From positions 1-7,267 of IMG/VR virus record IMGVR_UViG_3300029745_000183: 7,267 nucleotides of DNA; one strand, given 5' to 3'. The position numbers and the translations under genes are program-made. This DNA is from a virus. Taxonomy: Duplodnaviria > Heunggongvirae > Uroviricota > Caudoviricetes. This document shows, piece after piece, positions 1 to 6,993 of the stretch; positions within the stretch are counted from its first letter, which is position 1; each line of letters begins with the position of its first letter. The notes below the pieces were generated by a model. It had not been told where the DNA came from. It made no database searches and worked only from the letters and a program-made list of their open reading frames with translations.

Positions 1-192
1 GTGACGCGAAAAGATGCCTGGTACTTTGCCAACTATGACCCGCGTATGAAGCGTGAAGGCCTGCATTATGTCGTGGTTGAGCGGGATGAAAAGTACATGG
101 CGAATTTTGACGAGATGGTGCCGGAGTTCATCGAAAAAATGGACGAGGCACTGGCTGAAATTGGTTTTGTATTTGGGGAGCAATGGCGATGA
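1..192 (+). CDS. 3' end (63 codons) of an unidentified protein, probably truncated at the window edge
   Basis: Frame is open from base 1 to TGA at 190-192. The first codon is GTG at the window edge, so the real start is most likely upstream. The stop overlaps the ATG of the next ORF (ATGA at 189-192). No motif I can assign. Confidence 0.5.
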
Positions 193-347
193 CGCATCCT
201 CACGATAATATCCGGGTAGGCGCGATCACTTTCGTCTACTCCATTACAAAGCGAGGCTGGGTATTTCCCGGCCTTTCTGTTATCAGAAATCCACTGAAAG
301 CACAGCGGCTGGCTGAGAAGATAAATAACAAACAGGAGGATATATGA
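189..347 (+). CDS. Hypothetical small protein (52 aa), translationally coupled on both sides
   Basis: ATG at 189 overlaps the upstream stop (ATGA) and its TGA at 345-347 overlaps the ATG of the DGQHR gene (ATGA). GGGGAG sits 9 nt upstream of the ATG. It is below the 60-aa cutoff of the supplied ORF track. No recognisable domain. Confidence 0.3.
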
Positions 348-1408
348 GTCAGGTTGGTAATCATTCATTCGAATTTCCGGCATCGCAAGGTGTACAGGGT
401 GGTACTGTTACACTCTTCCTTACCATACCAGGAAGATCGCTGGCTCGTTTCCTCGCTTCAGATAATTACGGCCATACACTGGAACGCTCTCAGCGAGAAA
501 TTAATCCAAATCGAGTACGAAAATTTTTAAATTATCTCACTAACGCAGACTCAAGAAATGAGCCTTTTATCATTCCCCCTCTCGTAGGTAACTGTGATTC
601 GAATATAGAATTTGTACCGTTTGGCAACACAAATGTTGGTATAGCCAGAATTCCCCTCGACGCCGAAATAAAACTTTTTGATGGTCAACATCGTGCAGCT
701 GGCATTGAGATATTTTGCCGAAGTTCCCCATCAACGCTCATGGTTCCCATGATGCTTACAATGAATCTGCCGCTAAAAACCCGGCAGCAGTTCTTTTCGG
801 ACATAAATAACAACGTTTCTAAGCCATCAGCGACCATCAATATGGCGTATAACGGCCGGGATGATATTGCTCAGGGAATGATATCCTTCCTGACCCAACA
901 TACTGTATTTGCCGATATAACCGATTTTGAACACAACGTAGTGCCATTAAAAAGTAATATGTGGGTGAGTTTCAAGGCACTCACTGATGCAACGTCAAAG
1001 TTCGCTAGGAACGGCAATCAACAACTTGAAATGGGATATATAGAATCTGTCTGGGAGGCATGGATTACACTAACTCAGATTGACTCAATCCGACATGGTG
1101 TACACCACGCTACGTACAAGCGCGATTATATTCAGTTCCATGGAGTAATGATTAACGCTTTCGGTTTTGCGGTTCAACAGATGATGGTTAATCATTCCAT
1201 CGCAGAAATAACTTCTATGATCGAAAAACTATGTGCAACTACCAGCTCTGCAGAAAGAGAGGATTTTTTTCTGATGGATAACTGGGCGGGGATCTGCACG
1301 AAAGCCAGCCAGGAAAAACTATCTGTTATTGCCAATGTGGCAGCGCAGAAAGCAGCAGCAAACAGACTGATACAAGCTTTTACCAAAGGAAGTCTGGAAA
1401 CAACTTAA
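344..1408 (+). CDS. DGQHR-domain protein, DndB-like (ParB/Srx-fold superfamily), 354 aa
   Basis: Contains the exact family-defining motif DGQHR (in IKLFDGQHRAAGIEIF), preceded by FIIPPLVGN. Length is in the DndB range. AGGAGG lies 4 nt upstream of ATG 344. No DndC/D/E-like genes follow in the window. Confidence 0.75.
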   Translation: MSQVGNHSFEFPASQGVQGGTVTLFLTIPGRSLARFLASDNYGHTLERSQREINPNRVRKFLNYLTNADSRNEPFIIPPLVGNCDSNIEFVPFGNTNVGIARIPLDAEIKLFDGQHRAAGIEIFCRSSPSTLMVPMMLTMNLPLKTRQQFFSDINNNVSKPSATINMAYNGRDDIAQGMISFLTQHTVFADITDFEHNVVPLKSNMWVSFKALTDATSKFARNGNQQLEMGYIESVWEAWITLTQIDSIRHGVHHATYKRDYIQFHGVMINAFGFAVQQMMVNHSIAEITSMIEKLCATTSSAEREDFFLMDNWAGICTKASQEKLSVIANVAAQKAAANRLIQAFTKGSLETT

Positions 1409-1485
1409 TGAATCAACATTGTCTCATATCAGCATGCTGTACGGCGTCTTTAAGGAACGGTGAGCATGAAAAACAAAATCATCAT

Positions 1486-1512
1486 GGAGCTACAGGCTCC
1501 TTTTTTATTATT
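1486..1512 (+). terminator. Candidate intrinsic terminator downstream of the DGQHR gene
   Basis: GGAGC-tacag-GCTCC hairpin (5-bp stem) followed directly by TTTTTTATTATT. The stem is short, so this is weak to moderate. Confidence 0.35.
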
Positions 1513-1561
1513 CGCATTCACCCTCAAGCGTATTAACCAACAATTCAGGGATTAATGAAAG

Positions 1562-1780
1562 ATGGCAGACATCATTGATTCAGCATCAGAAATTGAAGAA
1601 TTACAGCGCAACACAGCAATAAAAATGCGCCGCCTGAACCACCAGGCTATATCTGCCACTCATTGTTGTGAGTGTGGCGATCCGATAGATGAACGAAGAC
1701 GCCTGGCCGTTCAGGGTTGTCGGACTTGTGCAAGTTGCCAGGAGGAGATCGAACTTAAGAACAAACAATGGGGACTGTGA
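1562..1780 (+). CDS. TraR/DksA-family C4-type zinc-finger protein (72 aa)
   Basis: Small protein with two Cys pairs (CCEC and CRTCASC) in the spacing typical of the TraR/DksA C4 zinc finger. Homologues are common in lambdoid early regions. Confidence 0.7.
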   Translation: MADIIDSASEIEELQRNTAIKMRRLNHQAISATHCCECGDPIDERRRLAVQGCRTCASCQEEIELKNKQWGL

Positions 1781-1827
1781 TGGCTTCAAAGCAGCAAATT
1801 TCAACATCGTCCAACTGAGGTGTAAAA

Positions 1828-2067
1828 ATGTTCAGAATCATTTTTCCTAACACCTGGTACGTCGACCACCACGGCACTCCCTGCAAAATCCTGCGTTCTA
1901 CCCACAACAAAGTTCACTACATCCGAAAAGGCAGAACATGTATCGCCAGCATGTTCCGCTTTAATCATGACTTTGAACCTGTGAATAAAGCTGATGCAGA
2001 TCGGATAGCAGAAGAGATCGAAACGGCAGAACACATTAAGAAGTTACGTGCCATACGCAGGAAATAG
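1828..2067 (+). CDS. Hypothetical phage protein (79 aa)
   Basis: ORF with a good SD (GAGGTG, 7-nt spacer), co-oriented with the xis-int operon. No motif recognised. Confidence 0.55.
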   Translation: MFRIIFPNTWYVDHHGTPCKILRSTHNKVHYIRKGRTCIASMFRFNHDFEPVNKADADRIAEEIETAEHIKKLRAIRRK

Positions 2068-2206
2068 AAAAATTGATAAATTCAATACTGCATTACTCAG
2101 CATTAAATTTATCTCTATGACCAGTCAAGAGATGTACCTGCCATGAGCTTAATATCATGTCAGATATATCGGTCACAAACTCCCTCAGCAGCTAAGAGGA
2201 GGACAA

Positions 2207-2443
2207 ATGTCTCGACTAATCACTTTACAGGACTGGGCTAAAGAAGAATTTGGGGACTTAGCACCAAGTGAGCGAGTTCTGAAAAAATACGCGCAAGGGA
2301 AAATGATGGCCCCACCCGCTATAAAAGTTGGTCGCTACTGGATGATTGACCGAAATTCCCGTTTTGTAGGAACGCTTGCAGAACCGCAACTCCCAATAAA
2401 CGCAAACCCAAAACTCCAACGGATAATCGCTGATGGCTGCTAG
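2207..2443 (+). CDS. xis: Excisionase (lambda Xis-like winged helix)
   Basis: N-terminal ITLQDW and a PPAIKVGRYW segment resemble lambda/HK022 Xis (LTLQEW ... PPPVKDGREY). AAGAGGAGG RBS. The 3' end overlaps the int start by 11 nt, as in lambda. Confidence 0.85.
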   Translation: MSRLITLQDWAKEEFGDLAPSERVLKKYAQGKMMAPPAIKVGRYWMIDRNSRFVGTLAEPQLPINANPKLQRIIADGC

Positions 2444-3575
2444 ACCCCGATCTCACAAAATCTCTATACCCAATTTATATTGCAAATTAGATAAGCGAAC
2501 CGGAAAGGTATATTGGCAATACAAACATCCACTATCCGGTCGTTTTCATAGCTTAGGAACTGATGAGAATGAAGCAAAACAAGTTGCTACTGAAGCAAAT
2601 ACCATTATTGCTGAACAACGTACCAGACAAATATTAAGCGTCAATGAGCGTCTGGAAAGAATGAAAGGCAGGCGCTCAGACATTACGGTGACAGAATGGC
2701 TTGATAAATATATTTCTATCCAGGAGGACAGGCTGCAACATAATGAACTAAGACCCAACTCCTATCGGCAAAAAGGCAAACCCATTCGTCTTTTCCGTGA
2801 GCATTGTGGAATGCAACACCTCAAGGATATTACCGCACTTGATATTGCCGAAATAATTGATGCTGTAAAGGCTGAAGGTCATAACAGGATGGCGCAAGTC
2901 GTGAGAATGGTGTTGATCGACGTCTTCAAAGAAGCACAACACGCAGGACATGTTCCGCCAGGATTTAACCCTGCGCAGGCAACAAAACAACCGCGAAATC
3001 GAGTAAACCGCCAAAGATTGTCACTGCTCGAATGGCAGGCAATATTTGAAAGCGTAAGCAGACGGCAGCCCTATTTAAAATGCGGCATGCTACTTGCTCT
3101 TGTTACTGGACAACGTTTAGGCGATATCTGCAATTTGAAATTCTCTGATATATGGGACGACATGTTGCACATTACTCAGGAAAAAACCGGTTCAAAACTT
3201 GCTATTCCGCTTAACCTGAAATGCGATGCTCTGAATATTACCCTTCGTGAAGTTATATCTCAGTGCAGGGATGCTGTTGTTAGTAAATATCTGGTCCATT
3301 ACCGTCACACTACCTCTCAAGCAAACAGAGGAGACCAGGTTTCTGCAAATACTCTGACAACGGCTTTTAAAAAGGCCCGGGAAAAATGTGGCATAAAATG
3401 GGAGCAAGGAACTGCGCCCACATTTCATGAGCAGCGATCTCTCTCAGAACGGTTATATCGGGAACAGGGTCTGGATACGCAAAAGTTGTTAGGCCATAAA
3501 TCCAGAAAAATGACCGACCGATACAATGATGATCGTGGTAAAGACTGGATTATCGTAGATATCAAAACAGCATAG
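2433..3575 (+). CDS. int: Tyrosine recombinase, lambda Int family integrase (380 aa)
   Basis: N-terminus RPRSHKISIPNLY and C-terminal TFHEQRSLSERLY...LLGHKS...RYNDDRG match lambda Int (RRRSHERRDLPPNLY; TFHELRSLSARLY...LLGHKSDTM...YRDDRG), including the catalytic R, HxxR and Y positions. Confidence 0.95.
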   Translation: MAARPRSHKISIPNLYCKLDKRTGKVYWQYKHPLSGRFHSLGTDENEAKQVATEANTIIAEQRTRQILSVNERLERMKGRRSDITVTEWLDKYISIQEDRLQHNELRPNSYRQKGKPIRLFREHCGMQHLKDITALDIAEIIDAVKAEGHNRMAQVVRMVLIDVFKEAQHAGHVPPGFNPAQATKQPRNRVNRQRLSLLEWQAIFESVSRRQPYLKCGMLLALVTGQRLGDICNLKFSDIWDDMLHITQEKTGSKLAIPLNLKCDALNITLREVISQCRDAVVSKYLVHYRHTTSQANRGDQVSANTLTTAFKKAREKCGIKWEQGTAPTFHEQRSLSERLYREQGLDTQKLLGHKSRKMTDRYNDDRGKDWIIVDIKTA

Positions 3576-3585
3576 AAAATAGCCA

Positions 3586-3622
3586 GTTTTGGGGAAGGGT
3601 TTTGGGGAAAGTTTTGGGGAAG
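3586..3622. repeat. Three tandem copies of GTTTTGGGGAA(G/A), period 12-13 bp
   Basis: Direct reading: copies start at 3586, 3599 and 3611, immediately 3' of the int stop codon. Confidence 0.6.
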
Positions 3623-3642
3623 ATTTTACATCATCATAAATC

Positions 3643-3675
3643 AACGGGCGTGTTATACGCCCGTTTCAATATTTA
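3643..3675. terminator. Bidirectional intrinsic terminator shared by int (+) and the icd fragment (-)
   Basis: Perfect 9-bp stem AACGGGCGT / ACGCCCGTT with a 5-nt loop, followed by TTTCAATATTT on the + strand and a U-rich run on the minus strand. It lies 23 nt beyond the icd stop codon. Confidence 0.65.
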
Positions 3676-3688
3676 ACACATGTAGTGA

Positions 3689-3853
3689 TTACATATTCTT
3701 GATGATCGCGTCACCAAACTCTGAACATTTCAGCAGTTTAGCGCCTTCCATCAGACGTTCGAAGTCATAGGTTACAGTCTTCGCGTTGATCGCGCCTTCC
3801 ATACCTTTAACAATCAGGTCTGCGGCTTCAGTCCAACCCATGTGGCGCAGCAT
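3689..3853 (-). pseudogene. icd: 3'-terminal fragment of isocitrate dehydrogenase (last 54 codons plus stop), icdC-like
   Basis: Minus-strand translation gives [54 protein letters not shown], which I recognise as the Icd C-terminus. An in-frame TAA two codons upstream ends the homology at about 3853, so no full-length icd is present. Confidence 0.85.
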
Positions 3854-3911
3854 TAGTTAGATGACTAAATCGTAACTATTTGACATAGCAACATAATTTT
3901 ACTAATTTGCA

Positions 3912-3948
3912 TATAACTCATTAGCCCTTAGCATTTCTATAACTCATT
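3912..3948. repeat. Two exact direct copies of TATAACTCATT, 26 bp apart
   Basis: Direct reading: copies at 3912-3922 and 3938-3948, in the AT-rich arm between the icd homology boundary and the mcrA 3' end. Confidence 0.5.
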
Positions 3949-4040
3949 GATTATAAACATGTGTTTTTGAGTTTTGATAACCATTTTTAGCATAAAAATA
4001 GCAGTTAACATTTGCAGAAGTTAAGATCAGAGAAAAATTT

Positions 4041-4054
4041 TACCCTGTAGGGTA
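4041..4054 (-). terminator. Weak candidate terminator downstream of mcrA
   Basis: TACCC-tgta-GGGTA hairpin about 35 nt past the mcrA stop, followed on the minus strand by AAATTTTTCTC. The stem is only 5 bp. Confidence 0.2.
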
Positions 4055-4086
4055 TTACGTCTTAAATGTGACTTTAATAAATAATT

Positions 4087-4920
4087 TTATTTCTGTAATC
4101 GGTTTATATTAACGTAAAGCATCTCGATTAGTTCTTTTGCATTTTTACTATAGTGCAATTCTCTATGGCAATTCGGACAAAGGGCAACACAGTTATCTGT
4201 TGTATCAGCACCACCTGAAGACAGGGGAATTACATGATGCACTTCCAAATATGGGTTTCCATCATTTAAATAAAACGGAGCATTTTTACCACAGTTTTCA
4301 CATATACCTTTACTTTGCTGTAAAATCCAAGCTTTTACCATCGGGTCTCGGACATAAACTTTTTGTAGTCTTTCTACCTCAACTGGTTTCCTAGAGCCCT
4401 CGGGTTGACTCAACGTTTTCTTAATTAATTTACTAACCCTCATATTCAGAAGCGATTCATCATCTGTAGGCTGTGAAAGCTCTGATAGTTCTCCACGTAT
4501 TATAGACGCCCAAAAACTGTCACTATAAATACCTGGAACATTTATCAATATTCGTTTCGTTCTATTGCCGGAAGGAATTTCCTTTCTCCCCGTACGACTA
4601 AAATAAGCCTGATAACCACACATCTTCAAGCGTATATCGCGGGGGCTATTACCAATCAAAGTAAAATATTCACCAGGATGGATTTTTCTTTCATCCAAAG
4701 AATGCATATGTTTTCTGACTGATGATGACGCCAGATATACTACGACTTGGGATACACCAGAATCAACCAACCGTTCAATGATATAATCAAGAGCGATATT
4801 GTAATCTTTGTTTCTGTCACCCGGCCCCCACGACTCAAGGATTAGACCATAAACACCATCCTCTTCACCTATCGAACACTCAGCTTTCAGTTCAATTCCA
4901 TTATTATCAAAAACATGCAT
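4087..4920 (-). CDS. mcrA: McrA, type IV modified-cytosine-specific restriction endonuclease (HNH), 277 aa
   Basis: Protein begins MHVFDNNGIELKAECSIGEEDGVYGLILESWGPGDRNKDY and ends with the HNH region CENCG...HHVIP...CVALCPNCHRELH. Length and sequence match my recollection of E. coli McrA, which is encoded on e14 next to pin. Confidence 0.93.
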   Translation of the reverse strand: MHVFDNNGIELKAECSIGEEDGVYGLILESWGPGDRNKDYNIALDYIIERLVDSGVSQVVVYLASSSVRKHMHSLDERKIHPGEYFTLIGNSPRDIRLKMCGYQAYFSRTGRKEIPSGNRTKRILINVPGIYSDSFWASIIRGELSELSQPTDDESLLNMRVSKLIKKTLSQPEGSRKPVEVERLQKVYVRDPMVKAWILQQSKGICENCGKNAPFYLNDGNPYLEVHHVIPLSSGGADTTDNCVALCPNCHRELHYSKNAKELIEMLYVNINRLQK

Positions 4921-5026: not shown

Positions 5027-5581
5027 TTATTTATCCCCTGCAGGAAACCTCTTATACAAAGTTGACACACCAACATCATAGATAATCGCCACCTTCTGGC
5101 GAGGAACTCCTGATGCAATTAATCGTCCGGCCTGTTCCCATTGTTCTGGTGTAAGTTTGGGACGACGTCCACCAATTCGTCCCTGTGCGCGAGCAGCTTC
5201 CAGTCCAGCTTTTGTTCTTTCAACAATCAGTTCACGCTCCATTTCAGCCAGGGCACCCATCACATGAAAGAAAAAGCGCCCCATTGGGGTACTGGTATCA
5301 ATTGAATCCGTCAGACTACGAAAGTTGATGCCTCGTTCGCGCAACTCCTCCACCAGCACGACAAGATGCCGCATACTGCGCCCCAGTCGGTCCAGTTTCC
5401 AGACCACCAGCGTATCACCTGCCGATAATGTCCTGAGCAGTTTTTTCAGTCCCGGCCTTTCGGACTTTGTACCGCTTATCTTGTCTTCAAAAATCAGCTC
5501 GCATCCTGCACAGTTCAGCGCATTACGTTGTAGATCTGTGTTCTGGTCATTTGTTGACACACGTACATAGCCAATAAGCAT
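5027..5581 (-). CDS. pin: Pin DNA invertase, serine recombinase of the Gin/Hin/Pin family (184 aa)
   Basis: From the internal Met the protein reads MLIGYVRVSTNDQNTDLQRNAL..., the canonical invertase N-terminus with catalytic Ser in VRVSTNDQ, and has a C-terminal HTH. GGGAG RBS 8 nt upstream of ATG at 5581. The track ORF start at 5617 is an in-frame upstream extension. Confidence 0.93.
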   Translation of the reverse strand: MLIGYVRVSTNDQNTDLQRNALNCAGCELIFEDKISGTKSERPGLKKLLRTLSAGDTLVVWKLDRLGRSMRHLVVLVEELRERGINFRSLTDSIDTSTPMGRFFFHVMGALAEMERELIVERTKAGLEAARAQGRIGGRRPKLTPEQWEQAGRLIASGVPRQKVAIIYDVGVSTLYKRFPAGDK

Positions 5582-5607
5582 GGTAGATCTCCCTGACAAA
5601 AGCAGGA

Positions 5608-6063
5608 ATGATGCCATTTGCTCGTTATTTCTGCATTTTCATAAACGTTGGTTTGGGAGAAGCGGCAAAACGAAATGTGGGGACAGGGGAAAATCAGATA
5701 CCGGACATGGCCTCTTTTGCCAGTGGTGATGGATGGATGAAATTACCCAACGGGAAAATCCTGCAATATGGTCGTGGTGCGATTACGCCGACATTATCGA
5801 CGCAAACAATGAGAATTACATTCAGCATCCCTTTTCCTAAAGAAGTGGACTGCGCCATGCTTACCCATTCTGGTGATGGTGGTGCGCCTTTAGGCGCTGG
5901 ACGGGGATTCGTGATGACTGCAGAAGGTCCAACACTAACCGGTTTTAATTCCGCTTACAGAACTGCATCAACCAGCTCCACAGTAACCTCTATAACTGTA
6001 TTGACGATTTGCAGTGATTGCAGGACGTTACGGGTAGCCTCATCGTTCTGTGGTTTCTGTTAA
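5608..6063 (+). pseudogene. Orphan side-tail-fibre C-terminal fragment (stfE-like), the variable cassette of the Pin inversion module
   Basis: Divergent from pin and reads through the crossover site. The segment [19 protein letters not shown] resembles tail-fibre C-terminal domains. No fibre N-terminal region, no tfa gene, and a Cys-rich, non-protein-like tail ([17 protein letters not shown]). ATG 5608 is probably not a genuine start. Confidence 0.4.
5636..5661. other. Pin/Gin/Hin-type recombination crossover site (pix-like), 26 bp
   Basis: TTTTCATAAACG-TT-GGTTTGGGAGAA: two 12-bp half-sites around a 2-bp core. Reverse complement TTCTCCCAAACC-AA-CGTTTATGAAAA resembles hixL TTCTTGAAAACC-AA-GGTTTTTGATAA. 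Sits 55 bp upstream of the pin start, the expected position. Confidence 0.55.
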
Positions 6064-6068
6064 TCGAT

Positions 6069-6269
6069 TTATCCATTAGATTTTTCATAAAGCTCAGGTT
6101 TAAATGGCAACCGTCCGCAAGTTCTATATGCAGCTTCTGCTGCACGTCCTTTTGGAATTAACTGGCCCGGACGGTTTCGCCACTGATAAACGGCTTCAGT
6201 TGTTATGCCGAAAAAAGCAGCAACTTTCTCAATACTGCCGAAGTAGCTTTCGATATCGTCAGTTGTCAT
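6069..6269 (-). CDS. Cro-like HTH regulator (YdaS/Cro family), 66 aa
   Basis: Small HTH protein (VAAFFGITTEAVYQWRN...IPKGRAAEAAYRTCGRLPFKPELY) transcribed divergently from the CI-like repressor. GGAGGG RBS. Confidence 0.8.
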   Translation of the reverse strand: MTTDDIESYFGSIEKVAAFFGITTEAVYQWRNRPGQLIPKGRAAEAAYRTCGRLPFKPELYEKSNG

Positions 6270-6366
6270 ACGCCCTCCAAACTAAGTTTTATTAGATGCT
6301 AATTACAAATCTATCTTTGGTCAATAAAAACTAAGATTACTTAGCAATTCAAGAAATGGTGCTCCT
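6270..6366. promoter_or_regulatory. Divergent promoter/operator region between the cro-like and cI-like genes
   Basis: 97-bp AT-rich intergenic region. Two inverted repeats of form CTAAG-N4-(C/A)TTAG at 6282-6295 and 6331-6344. Minus-strand sigma70-like elements TTGACC (6319-6324) and TAGCAT (6296-6301) with a 17-bp spacer, a candidate pR for the cro-like gene. Confidence 0.55.
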
Positions 6367-6993
6367 ATGGAAACGGTTGGTCAGCGTATAAAAGCTCTGA
6401 GAAGAGTTACCGGAACGTCCCAGAAAGAATTGGGTAAATTTTGTGGAGTAAGCGACGTTGCTGTGGGGTACTGGGAGAAAGACATCAATACCCCTGGTGG
6501 GGAGGCACTTTCGAAATTAGCGAAGTTCTTCAATACGTCAATAGATTACATTCTTTATGGTGCTGAGTTTGAAGGCAAACTCGTCACAAACATGCGCAGA
6601 GTTCCTGTAATATCGTGGGTTCAGGCTGGGCAGTTTACTGAGTGCAGGGCAGCAGAAGTGTTTAGTGAAGTGGACAAGTGGGTAGATACATCATTAAAGA
6701 TTGGTGATAACTCATTTGCATTAGAGGTTAAAGGTGACTCCATGACTAACCCTAATGGCCTCCCAACAATACCAGAAGGCGCAACAGTGATTGTAGATCC
6801 AGATGCAGAACCTCGTCATGGAAAAATAGTCATCGCTCGACTTGATGGAACAAACGAAGCTACAGTAAAAAAATTAGTCATCGATGGCCCTCAAAAGTTT
6901 TTAGTGCCATTAAATCCTCGGTATCCCAACATCCCTATCAATGGTAATTGCCTTATCATTGGTGTAGTCAAAGGAGTTCAATACGAACTCTAA
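6367..6993 (+). CDS. CI-like prophage repressor: N-terminal XRE HTH plus C-terminal S24 (LexA-like) autopeptidase domain, 208 aa
   Basis: HTH at the N-terminus (QKELGKFCGVSDVAVGYWE). Ala-Gly cleavage-site candidate in WVQAGQF. Catalytic Ser in KGDSM and Lys in ATVKKL, as in LexA and lambda CI. Confidence 0.88.
   Translation: METVGQRIKALRRVTGTSQKELGKFCGVSDVAVGYWEKDINTPGGEALSKLAKFFNTSIDYILYGAEFEGKLVTNMRRVPVISWVQAGQFTECRAAEVFSEVDKWVDTSLKIGDNSFALEVKGDSMTNPNGLPTIPEGATVIVDPDAEPRHGKIVIARLDGTNEATVKKLVIDGPQKFLVPLNPRYPNIPINGNCLIIGVVKGVQYEL

What the first reader, a model, noticed from the sequence alone, without database searches (positions are those of the whole stretch)
3576..4086. icd 3' fragment sits between int and mcrA: an attP-like, not attL/attR-like, arrangement
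e14-type elements integrate into the 3' end of icd and carry a replacement icd terminus. Here 165 bp of icd 3' coding sequence plus its terminator lie directly after int, the homology stops at about 3853 with an in-frame stop two codons upstream, and the other side runs into mcrA. In an integrated prophage, int and mcrA should be at opposite ends separated by the whole element, with full-length icd continuing beyond the junction. This order is what an excised circle, a tandem insertion or a rearranged remnant would give. The known e14 cargo genes between icd and int are also absent, leaving only 113 bp between the int and icd stop codons.
Basis: partly seen in the sequence, partly recalled or inferred. 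Interest (0 to 1): 0.6.

Follow-up and report, generated by a model that had tools for sequence, protein, structure and literature searches.

The report
Junction between two tandem icd prophages
The icd gene fragment between an integrase gene and mcrA is the internal attachment site of two different defective prophages (a phage-21-type and an e14-type) sitting side by side in the E. coli icd gene, which is an ordinary and already understood arrangement.

Summary
A 113-bp spacer follows. A 165-bp icd 3' fragment lies at 3689-3853 on the minus strand, with a TAA two codons upstream, and then comes mcrA.

- Left of 3853 the sequence is 100% identical to phage-21-type remnants that abut a full-length icd in many E. 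coli.
- Right of 3853 is the mcrA-side end of e14-type elements, as at K-12 mcrA-icdC.
- Contigs identical to the window show the whole order: 21-type remnant...xis-int | icd' | mcrA-pin-stf'-cro-cI...xisE-intE-cargo | full-length icd.
- The window therefore holds the internal att site of a tandem of two different elements. It is attL of the 21-type element fused to attR of an 11-kb e14-type remnant.
- The arm motifs agree: three TTTTGGGGAA (21-type) on the int side and one TTTTGATAAC (e14-type) on the mcrA side.
- Three closed-genome lineages show analogous arrays, and the reverse order also occurs.

It is not an excised circle or an assembly chimera. Novelty and interest are low.

The parts
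2207..2443 (+). Excisionase of the phage-21-type element (B)
   Evidence: Pfam Exc. The exact sequence carries the UniRef name 'Excisionase RepID=VXIS_BPP21'.
2433..3575 (+). Tyrosine integrase of element B (380 aa), with a lambda-type arm-binding N-terminal domain
   Evidence: Pfam Arm-DNA-bind_1 and Phage_integrase. It is 59% identical to the e14-type IntE of the same genome. The same int lies beside a full-length icd in single lysogens and at attP in free phages such as 4A7.
3585..3627 (+). Three direct repeats of TTTTGGGGAA spaced 12-13 bp apart. They are candidate 21-type arm-type Int sites (P' arm of B).
   Evidence: In free phage 4A7 the same three copies are present, plus a fourth copy 119 bp beyond the core on the other arm. 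That fourth copy is missing from the window. Binding by Int is inferred, not shown.
3643..3665 (-). icd transcription terminator hairpin, carried within the duplicated block
   Evidence: It is conserved in all att copies.
3637..3853 (-). 217-bp block shared by all att copies (icd 3' end plus terminator). The copy here is the one carried by element B.
   Evidence: Zero differences from the icd end of single B lysogens such as FORC 064. It has 29 differences from the full-length icd of its own genome, and 16 from K-12 icdC.
3689..3853 (-). icd 3' coding fragment (54 codons), non-functional here
   Evidence: TAA lies two codons upstream.
3843..3853 (.). Inferred crossover (core overlap) interval, TGGCGCAGCA(T)
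   Evidence: K-12 attL, attR and the excised e14 circle differ at 3842, and the arms diverge from 3854. In a K-12 derivative carrying a 21-type att insertion, SNPs at 3842 and 3853 bracket the exchange to 3843-3852.
3854..4086 (.). e14-type P arm (mcrA side). It holds one e14-type arm motif, TTTTGATAAC, at 3972-3981, a TATAACTCATT pair at 3912-3948, and the mcrA terminator-like hairpin at 4041-4054.
   Evidence: It is near-identical to K-12 attR and to the excised e14 circle attP. The motif pattern is 3+1 in the e14 circle, with the single copy 119 bp from the core. The window has only the single copy. The three companion copies lie at the e14-type attL in L028 at 18988-19021. Hairpin.
4087..4920 (-). 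mcrA (type IV HNH restriction endonuclease), terminal gene of the e14-type element (A)
5027..5581 (-). pin-type DNA invertase of element A
   Evidence: Pfam Resolvase and HTH_7. pinE is annotated in the matching genomes.
5611..6063 (+). Truncated tail-fibre ORF (Gp53-like_C) fused by a deletion to the cro region. It serves as a marker of this particular remnant.
   Evidence: An exact-protein look-up found 20 contigs; most of the longer ones shown have the window's gene order, L031 does not.
6069..6993 (.). cro (6069-6269, -) and cI-like LexA-family repressor (6367-6993, +) of element A

Best explanation
The window spans the internal attachment site of a tandem array of two different defective prophages, both inserted in the 3' end of E. 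coli icd.

- **Element B** (left of 3853) is a phage-21-type lambdoid remnant. Its int-proximal arm and its own replacement copy of the icd 3' end form its attL.
- **Element A** (right of 3853) is an 11-kb e14-type remnant: mcrA-pin-stf'-cro-cI...xisE-intE-cargo. Its mcrA-side arm forms its attR.
- The two types of integrase use the same ~10-bp crossover interval at the 5' edge of the 217-bp shared block. An icd gene rebuilt by one element therefore remains a complete target for the other.

The most likely history is that B lysogenised first. The e14-type element then integrated by Int-mediated site-specific recombination into the rebuilt icd. That left B's icd fragment stranded between mcrA and B's int, and gave the full-length icd a new e14-type 3' end.

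The array structure and the hybrid nature of the site are shown by the data. The order of arrival, and Int binding to the repeated arm motifs, are inferred.
For: 1. Window 1-3853 is 100% identical to many E. coli in which this int abuts a full-length icd.
2. Window 3843-5985 matches e14-type mcrA-icdC ends at up to 98.8% identity.
3. Seven other contigs match the window at 99.96-100% over the parts they cover: L028, L029 and L032 over its whole length, L030 and L033-L035 over 3.5-7.2 kb. L028 is a 120-kb genome contig, L029 a 179-kb metagenome scaffold, and the rest are smaller assemblies. L028 and L029 show the second integrase (375 aa), xisE, a cargo gene and a full-length icd 11 kb to the right.
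4. The second integrase is 94% identical to K-12 IntE. The window's integrase is 59% identical to it.
5. The window's Xis carries the phage 21 excisionase name.
6. The true attP of each type has a different second arm. Phage 4A7 has int-icd'-sitABCD side. The excised e14 circle has mcrA-icd'-ymfD. Both are aligned with the window.
7. Arm motifs agree. The 21-type TTTTGGGGAA occurs three times only on the int side. The e14-type TTTTGATAAC occurs once on the mcrA side. Both types have a 3+1 layout in their own attP, with the single copy 119 bp from the core.
8. The middle block is purely B-type and the full icd end is purely e14-type. This fits exchange at the block's edge rather than inside it.
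9. Closed genome 82.0311 shows a complete array: icd - e14-type prophage - icd' - 21-type prophage - icdC. PEC131 is a third lineage. The reverse order occurs in MS1657 and in a K-12 derivative carrying a luxR construct at the 21-type site.
10. Papers read here state that icd is the phage 21 attachment site and that e14 integrates at the same locus (PMC12803456), and that icd is among the most occupied prophage hotspots (PMC3603311). That phage 21 and e14 share one attB is taken from the title of Wang et al. 1997, which appears in their reference lists and could not be read.
Against: - The distal end of element B (the third icd copy) is not visible for the window's own genome. L028 ends about 0.9 kb beyond the locus fetched. 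The third copy is seen only in relatives (FORC 064, ML35, 82.0311).
- The order of arrival cannot be read from the junction sequence. Integration of B into the attR of a resident e14-type element gives the same product.
- Arm-site function rests on repeat pattern and position only. The counts of each 10-mer in a 7-kb window are only modestly above shuffled expectation (7 of 200 shuffles for TTTTGGGGAA). The argument comes from their clustering and conserved placement.
Confidence: 0.94

Rival explanations
1. The window is the attP region of one excised, circular e14-like element, or a permuted record of one. On this reading int and mcrA belong to the same element.
For: In an excised e14 circle, mcrA does lie next to an icd fragment. 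Both arms in the window are phage DNA.
Against: - In the e14 circle the other arm is ymfD-ymfE-lit-intE with TTTTGATAAC x3, not this int with TTTTGGGGAA x3.
- Free 21-type phages have a sitABCD-side arm, not mcrA.
- Identical sequence sits in 120-179 kb chromosomal contigs, with a second int and a full-length icd nearby.
- No phage or plasmid record holds the junction.
Confidence: 0.01
2. The junction is an assembly chimera, made by mis-joining across the repeated 217-bp icd block.
For: The block is present two to three times per genome. Repeats of that length can mislead short-read assemblers.
Against: - The copies in the same genome differ at 29 of 217 positions, so they are easy to tell apart.
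- The same junction, 99.96-100% identical, occurs in at least six other assemblies from different samples.
- Analogous junctions occur in four RefSeq assemblies of complete-genome level.
Confidence: 0.02
3. The tandem is real, but arose in the opposite order. The e14-type element was resident first, and the 21-type phage integrated into its attR (the mcrA-icdC junction).
For: The product is identical at the junction (alignment logic). Single e14-type lysogens are common.
Against: - attR lacks the icd-5' half of the bacterial core, so it is a poorer target than the rebuilt icd.
- In the K-12 (e14+) derivative with a 21-type att insertion, the insertion went into the full-length icd, not attR. 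This is one case only.
- Single B lysogens with 100% identical sequence over 1-3853 are abundant. The particular e14-type remnant marked by the 150-aa stf' ORF was found together with mcrA only in this tandem arrangement.
Confidence: 0.25
4. The second element entered by RecA-dependent homologous recombination within the 217-bp icd block, not by integrase.
For: The blocks are 87% identical, and homologous recombination is possible. The resulting gene order would be the same.
Against: - Exchange inside the block should leave mosaic blocks.
- The middle block is 0/217 different from B-type attL, and the full icd end is 0/217 different from the e14-type end of strain ML35.
- Any exchange therefore lay at the extreme edge, where the integrase core is.
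Confidence: 0.07

Closest known systems
e14 defective prophage of E. coli K-12: attR end pinE-mcrA-icdC and attL at icd
   Same: - The window from 3854 rightwards has the same mcrA-side arm, mcrA and pin as K-12 e14.
- The unit's own integrase is 94% identical to IntE.
- The 3+1 TTTTGATAAC arm layout is the same.
- It uses the same crossover interval in icd.
   Different: - The unit here is 11.0 kb rather than 15.2 kb.
- cro is fused to a truncated tail-fibre gene.
- The cargo next to int is a 775-aa NB-ARC/TPR protein instead of lit, ymfD and ymfE.
- The icd fragment beside mcrA is not the ancestral chromosomal end. It is the copy brought by a second prophage.
Phage 21-type lambdoid phages that integrate in icd (phage 21; Bievrevirus 4A7, 3W, Lambda_ev phages; prophage NC-SV)
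   Same: - The xis-int module and 113-bp spacer with three TTTTGGGGAA repeats are the same.
- So is the carried icd 3' end, 96-100% identical.
- NC-SV is described as sitting at the phage 21 site in icd (PMC12803456).
   Different: - Element B is a remnant. It has a partial replication region and no immunity region in L028.
- It carries a DndB-like DGQHR gene where 4A7 has other small genes.
- Its attL has an e14-type arm where the icd 5' part would normally be.
Tandem (polylysogen) arrays of integrative elements at one attB, with three related att copies
   Same: There are two units, each with its own int next to its attL. The internal att has mobile-element DNA on both sides. Such arrays are routinely resolved in island-mapping work (PMC10111431) and were noted for enterobacterial prophages (PMC3603311).
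   Different: The two units are of different types, with different arm specificity. From memory of the abstract of Wang et al. 1997 (J Bacteriol 179:5705; not readable here), an e14 and an adjacent 21 prophage were studied in K-12 and each excised the other poorly.

Membership tests
Tandem prophage array at one attB | Three directly repeated copies of the att identity block bounding two units | tested here: met
   Two copies were seen in the window's own genome: L028 8027-8243 and 19039-19254. The third lies beyond the contig held. All three are seen in closed genome 82.0311, and the distal copy is seen in FORC 064 and ML35.
Tandem prophage array at one attB | Each unit has its own integrase next to its own attL | tested here: met
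   The 380-aa int lies beside icd'. The 375-aa int, followed by a cargo gene, lies beside the full-length icd. The two are 59% identical.
Tandem prophage array at one attB | The internal att combines the distal arm of one unit with the int-proximal arm of the other | tested here: met
   Alignment with reference attP, attL, attR and attB and arm motif distribution.
e14-type element (unit A) | IntE-type integrase and XisE | tested here: met
   94% identity to K-12 IntE. An 81-aa Exc-family gene lies upstream. Both are outside the window.
e14-type element (unit A) | pin-mcrA at the end next to an icd fragment, with the e14 mcrA-side arm | tested here: met
e14-type element (unit A) | Excision on SOS induction | not testable with these tools
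   int, xis, cI and cro are intact ORFs. Activity would need experiment.
Phage-21-type integration module (unit B) | Phage 21 excisionase | tested here: met
   The exact sequence carries the UniRef name RepID=VXIS_BPP21.
Phage-21-type integration module (unit B) | Integrase equal or near-equal to phage 21 Int | not tested
   No phage 21 Int sequence was available. Cluster names are generic. Membership is inferred from the linked Xis and from att architecture.
Phage-21-type integration module (unit B) | attP carries the icd 3' end between the core and the int-side arm | tested here: met
   Free phage 4A7 has int, 113 bp, then icd'. The same layout is present in the window.
   The left arm has 21-type motifs only. 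The right arm has the e14-type motif and e14 sequence. The fourth 21-type copy seen in a true attP is absent.
   Identical sequence is embedded in 120-kb and 179-kb contigs with chromosomal genes. There is no phage or plasmid record with the junction.

The most novel reading that the evidence does not exclude
The hybrid internal att may be more than a passive scar. Co-occupation of icd by 21-type and e14-type elements, followed by deletion across the internal att, could be a regular route by which mosaic prophages and defence-gene islands are assembled at this hotspot. Strain ML35 shows such a deletion, with ymfQ' fused to P'. A second possibility is that the small e14-type remnant benefits from a neighbouring 21-type phage for mobilisation. 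Nothing here tests either idea beyond showing that both orders of tandem, and one deletion derivative, exist.
Probability: 0.1. Interest if true: 0.35.

Novelty: already known. Interest (0 to 1): 0.12.

Why it matters
Its main use is for annotation. Prophage and island callers should split this region into two units at 3843-3853, rather than calling one element or a circular form. The stranded icd fragment should not be read as evidence of excision.

The site is also a clear natural example of two integrases with the same core specificity but different arm specificity sharing one target. The arm motifs are readable directly from the sequence.

It raises no new biological question.

Tried and rejected
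- **Exact-pattern scans.** I scanned for the int...icd'...mcrA junction in one-genome-per-species contigs and in JGI metagenome contigs. Both found nothing. The source was found instead through the exact 150-aa stf' protein.
- **Exact-protein look-ups.** Look-ups of McrA and of the cI-like repressor returned many contexts, but none with the tandem junction.
- **Phages and plasmids.** Neither collection holds the junction. They did supply the two reference attP sites.
- **Rfam.** No match at gathering thresholds anywhere in the window.
- **sRNA idea.** I considered that the int-icd spacer might hold an sRNA like co293 or svsR. The svsR paper places svsR at the 3' end of cI, not here, so I dropped the idea.
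- **Primary papers.** Wang et al. 1997 and Mehta et al. 2004 are not held. What I say about the 1997 paper beyond its title is from memory and is marked as such.
- **Fixed polarity.** I tested whether the e14-type unit is always next to the full icd. It is not: a synthetic reverse-junction query found MS1657 and a K-12 derivative in the reverse order.
- **Coverage criterion.** The '≥80% coverage' count (1225 records) is not diagnostic, because single 21-type lysogens already cover 88% of that query. Only hits reaching query positions 1-59 count.

Full report
**1. The observation**

- An integrase gene (2433-3575, +) is followed by a 113-bp spacer.
- Next comes a 165-bp fragment of the 3' end of icd on the minus strand (3689-3853), with its terminator hairpin at 3643-3665.
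- An in-frame TAA lies two codons upstream of the fragment.
- A 233-bp AT-rich stretch follows, then mcrA (4087-4920, -).
- Pfam and PADLOC confirm the gene identities.

**2. The two halves of the window have different relatives**

I compared the window with 5,426 complete E. coli genomes.
- Positions 1-3853 are 100% identical to many strains, and the match stops exactly at 3853.
- In those strains, such as FORC 064, the same int lies 113 bp from a full-length icd. The element is a roughly 12-kb lambdoid remnant whose far end is an IS66/mcrBC-like region next to an icd pseudogene and iraM. It is not mcrA.
- Positions 3843 to about 5985 match the mcrA-pinE end of e14-type elements, where mcrA lies beside the icdC pseudogene as in K-12.
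- No complete genome holds 80% of the whole window. Only four hold an int-icd'-mcrA-side junction.

**3. Reference att sites**

- Free lambdoid phages (4A7, 3W, the Lambda_ev series) carry the same xis-int module and icd fragment as their attP. Their other arm leads to sitABCD.
- A 15.2-kb circular record (OR902858.1) has the size and gene order of excised e14. It gives the e14 attP as mcrA-icd'-ymfD...intE.
- I aligned the window with these two attP sites, with K-12 attL and attR, with a single 21-type lysogen's attL and attR, and with an unoccupied attB.
  - A 217-bp block (3637-3853) is common to all.
  - The window's left arm is the 21-type int-side arm.
  - The window's right arm is the e14 mcrA-side arm.
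- The window's site is therefore a hybrid of the two.

**4. The source context**

- An exact look-up of the 150-aa truncated tail-fibre ORF (5611-6063) found 20 contigs.
- L028, L029 and L032 match the whole window at 99.97-100%. L030 and L033-L035 match the 3.5-7.2 kb that they cover at 99.96-100%.
- L028 (a 120-kb genome contig) and L029 (a 179-kb metagenome scaffold) give the order: P-exo-DUF1317-DndB-like-TraR-DUF4222-xis-int(380) | icd' | mcrA-pin-stf'-cro-cI-...-yfdPQR-xis(81)-int(375)-NB-ARC/TPR protein | full-length icd.
- The 375-aa integrase is 94% identical to K-12 IntE and 59% identical to the window's integrase.
- The window's Xis is the phage 21 excisionase sequence.
- int and mcrA therefore belong to two different elements. 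Unit A (e14-type) measures 11,011 bp from core to core in L028.

**5. The three classes of icd block**

I counted differences over the 217-bp block.
- The window's copy has 0 differences from the icd end of single 21-type lysogens.
- It has 8-9 differences from 4A7, from the internal copy of 82.0311, and from an unoccupied attB.
- It has 16 differences from K-12 icdC.
- It has 29 differences from the full-length icd of its own genome. That copy is e14-type: 0 differences from ML35, and 14-22 from other e14-type copies.
- Neither copy is mosaic. This fits exchange at the edge of the block.

**6. The crossover interval**

- In K-12, attL and the excised e14 circle share G at 3842, while attR has A. 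The arms diverge from 3854. The e14 exchange therefore lies in 3843-3853.
- A K-12 MG1655 derivative (CP174267) carries a luxR construct inserted through a 21-type att site into the full-length icd of the e14 lysogen.
- There, SNPs at 3842 and 3853 bracket the exchange to 3843-3852, TGGCGCAGCA.
- That this strain was made with a phage 21 attP integration vector is my inference from its content.

**7. Arm motifs**

- The int-side spacer holds three TTTTGGGGAA repeats at 12-13 bp spacing, at 3587-3621.
- Phage 4A7 has the same three, plus a fourth 119 bp beyond the core on the other arm.
- The e14 circle has three TTTTGATAA(C/A) next to its icd block, plus a fourth copy 119 bp beyond the core on the mcrA side.
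- The window has the three 21-type copies on the left and the single e14-type copy at 3972-3981 on the right.
- The three e14-type copies sit at unit A's own attL, at L028 18988-19021.
- Both phage types thus share one att architecture but have different arm words. The window has exactly the set expected for attL(21-type) joined to attR(e14-type).
- That these repeats are the arm-type Int binding sites is inferred. The grounds are their placement and the lambda-type arm-binding domain in both integrases.

**8. Other instances**

- Closed genome 82.0311 has the full array with two apparently complete prophages: icd - cargo - intE...terminase...tail...pinE - mcrA' - icd' - int - lambdoid prophage - sitABCD - icdC.
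- PEC131 is a third lineage, with different cargo at the e14-type end.
- The reverse order (a 21-type unit next to the full icd) occurs naturally in MS1657 and in the K-12 derivative. There is no fixed polarity.
- In ML35 the same two units are fused by a deletion across the internal att.

**9. Mechanism and rivals**

- The best explanation is sequential Int-mediated integration of two elements that share core specificity. Each carries its own replacement icd end, so the rebuilt icd remains a complete target.
- I favour 'B first, then the e14-type unit into the rebuilt icd'. The rebuilt icd is a full attB, and the K-12 derivative shows that choice of target. The opposite order gives the same junction and keeps about a quarter of the probability.
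- An excised circle, an assembly chimera and a tandem of two identical units are effectively excluded. Entry by homologous recombination is unlikely, because the blocks are not mosaic.

**10. Comparison with what is known**

- icd is described as the phage 21 attachment site, and e14 as integrating at the same locus (PMC12803456). That the two share one attB is stated only in the title of Wang et al. 1997, cited there and in PMC3603311; I could not read it.
- icd is among the most occupied prophage hotspots (PMC3603311).
- e14 excision recombines icd with icdC and is linked to SOS induction (PMC13626634).
- Tandem arrays with three related att sites are routinely recognised (PMC10111431).
- From memory of the 1997 abstract, an e14 prophage and an adjacent 21 prophage were examined in K-12.

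**11. Verdict**

The window is therefore a natural, decayed example of a known arrangement. Interest is low. The practical value is correct delimitation of the two units.

Noticed in passing
window 344-1408 (+): A solitary DndB-like DGQHR-domain protein (Pfam DndB E = 3.8e-46; PADLOC DndB E = 4.3e-37) sits in the early-left region of the 21-type remnant. No other dnd genes are in the window. Phage 4A7 has small DUF1382-type genes at this position instead.
   Followed up: partly
window about 5985-6069; L031 9843-10647: cro is joined directly to a truncated invertible tail-fibre segment (150-aa Gp53-like_C ORF). The same ORF-cro junction also occurs in another context: near smpB, with a GmrSD-type gene and a truncated invertase in place of mcrA-pin. 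This small module is therefore not unique to the icd site.
   Followed up: partly
L028 16356-18683; L039 4597-9024; L043 4456-5739; L003 16262-19548: The slot between the e14-type int and icd holds different cargo in each strain. L028 has a 775-aa NB-ARC/TPR protein, 82.0311 has a hypothetical protein plus a DUF2357 pair, and MS1657 has an Sll1717-family P-loop ATPase. CFSAN061772 has a hypothetical protein, a nucleotidyltransferase-like protein and a Cap15 family cyclic dinucleotide receptor domain protein. K-12 has lit, ymfD and ymfE. It looks like a variable cargo slot, with several entries of defence type.
   Followed up: partly
L038 (E. coli ML35) 15669-16773: In ML35 the same e14-type and 21-type units are fused by a deletion joining a partial ymfQ to a partial replication gene P. 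The internal att, mcrA and the 380-aa int are removed, leaving one composite 'prophage' between icd and icdC.
   Followed up: partly
L004-L006, L008, L010-L012 (contigs found through the exact McrA protein): The identical 277-aa McrA occurs in contigs where icd is followed by a very short pin-mcrA remnant and an icd fragment. Next come genes for pertussis-like toxin subunits, a CdtB-like nuclease, a DinI-family protein, a cold-shock protein and an Ail/Lom-family protein. That gene content suggests Salmonella. The organism was not determined.
   Followed up: no
L025 (OR902858.1; also OR902851.1): Two 15.2-kb records deposited as E. coli 'plasmids' have the size and gene order of excised e14 (mcrA in three frameshifted pieces, an icd fragment, int, xis). 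They are useful as reference e14 attP sequences.
   Followed up: partly
L042 (K-12 MG1655 derivative CP174267) 418-2806 and 6505-10435: In this strain intE is interrupted by an IS3 element. A luxR-containing construct sits between the full icd and the e14 attL, flanked by 21-type att arms. It is presumably an engineered insertion.
   Followed up: partly
window 5027-5617 (-): The mechanical ORF for the invertase runs to 5617. The conserved 184-aa Pin starts at 5581 (MLIGYVRVST...), 30 bp from the divergent tail-fibre ORF, as in related loci.
   Followed up: yes
window 3912-3922 and 3938-3948: An exact 11-bp direct repeat, TATAACTCATT, lies in the e14 mcrA-side arm. It is also present in the excised e14 circle. 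It could be a binding site for an accessory factor (Xis, IHF or Fis); this was not examined.
   Followed up: no
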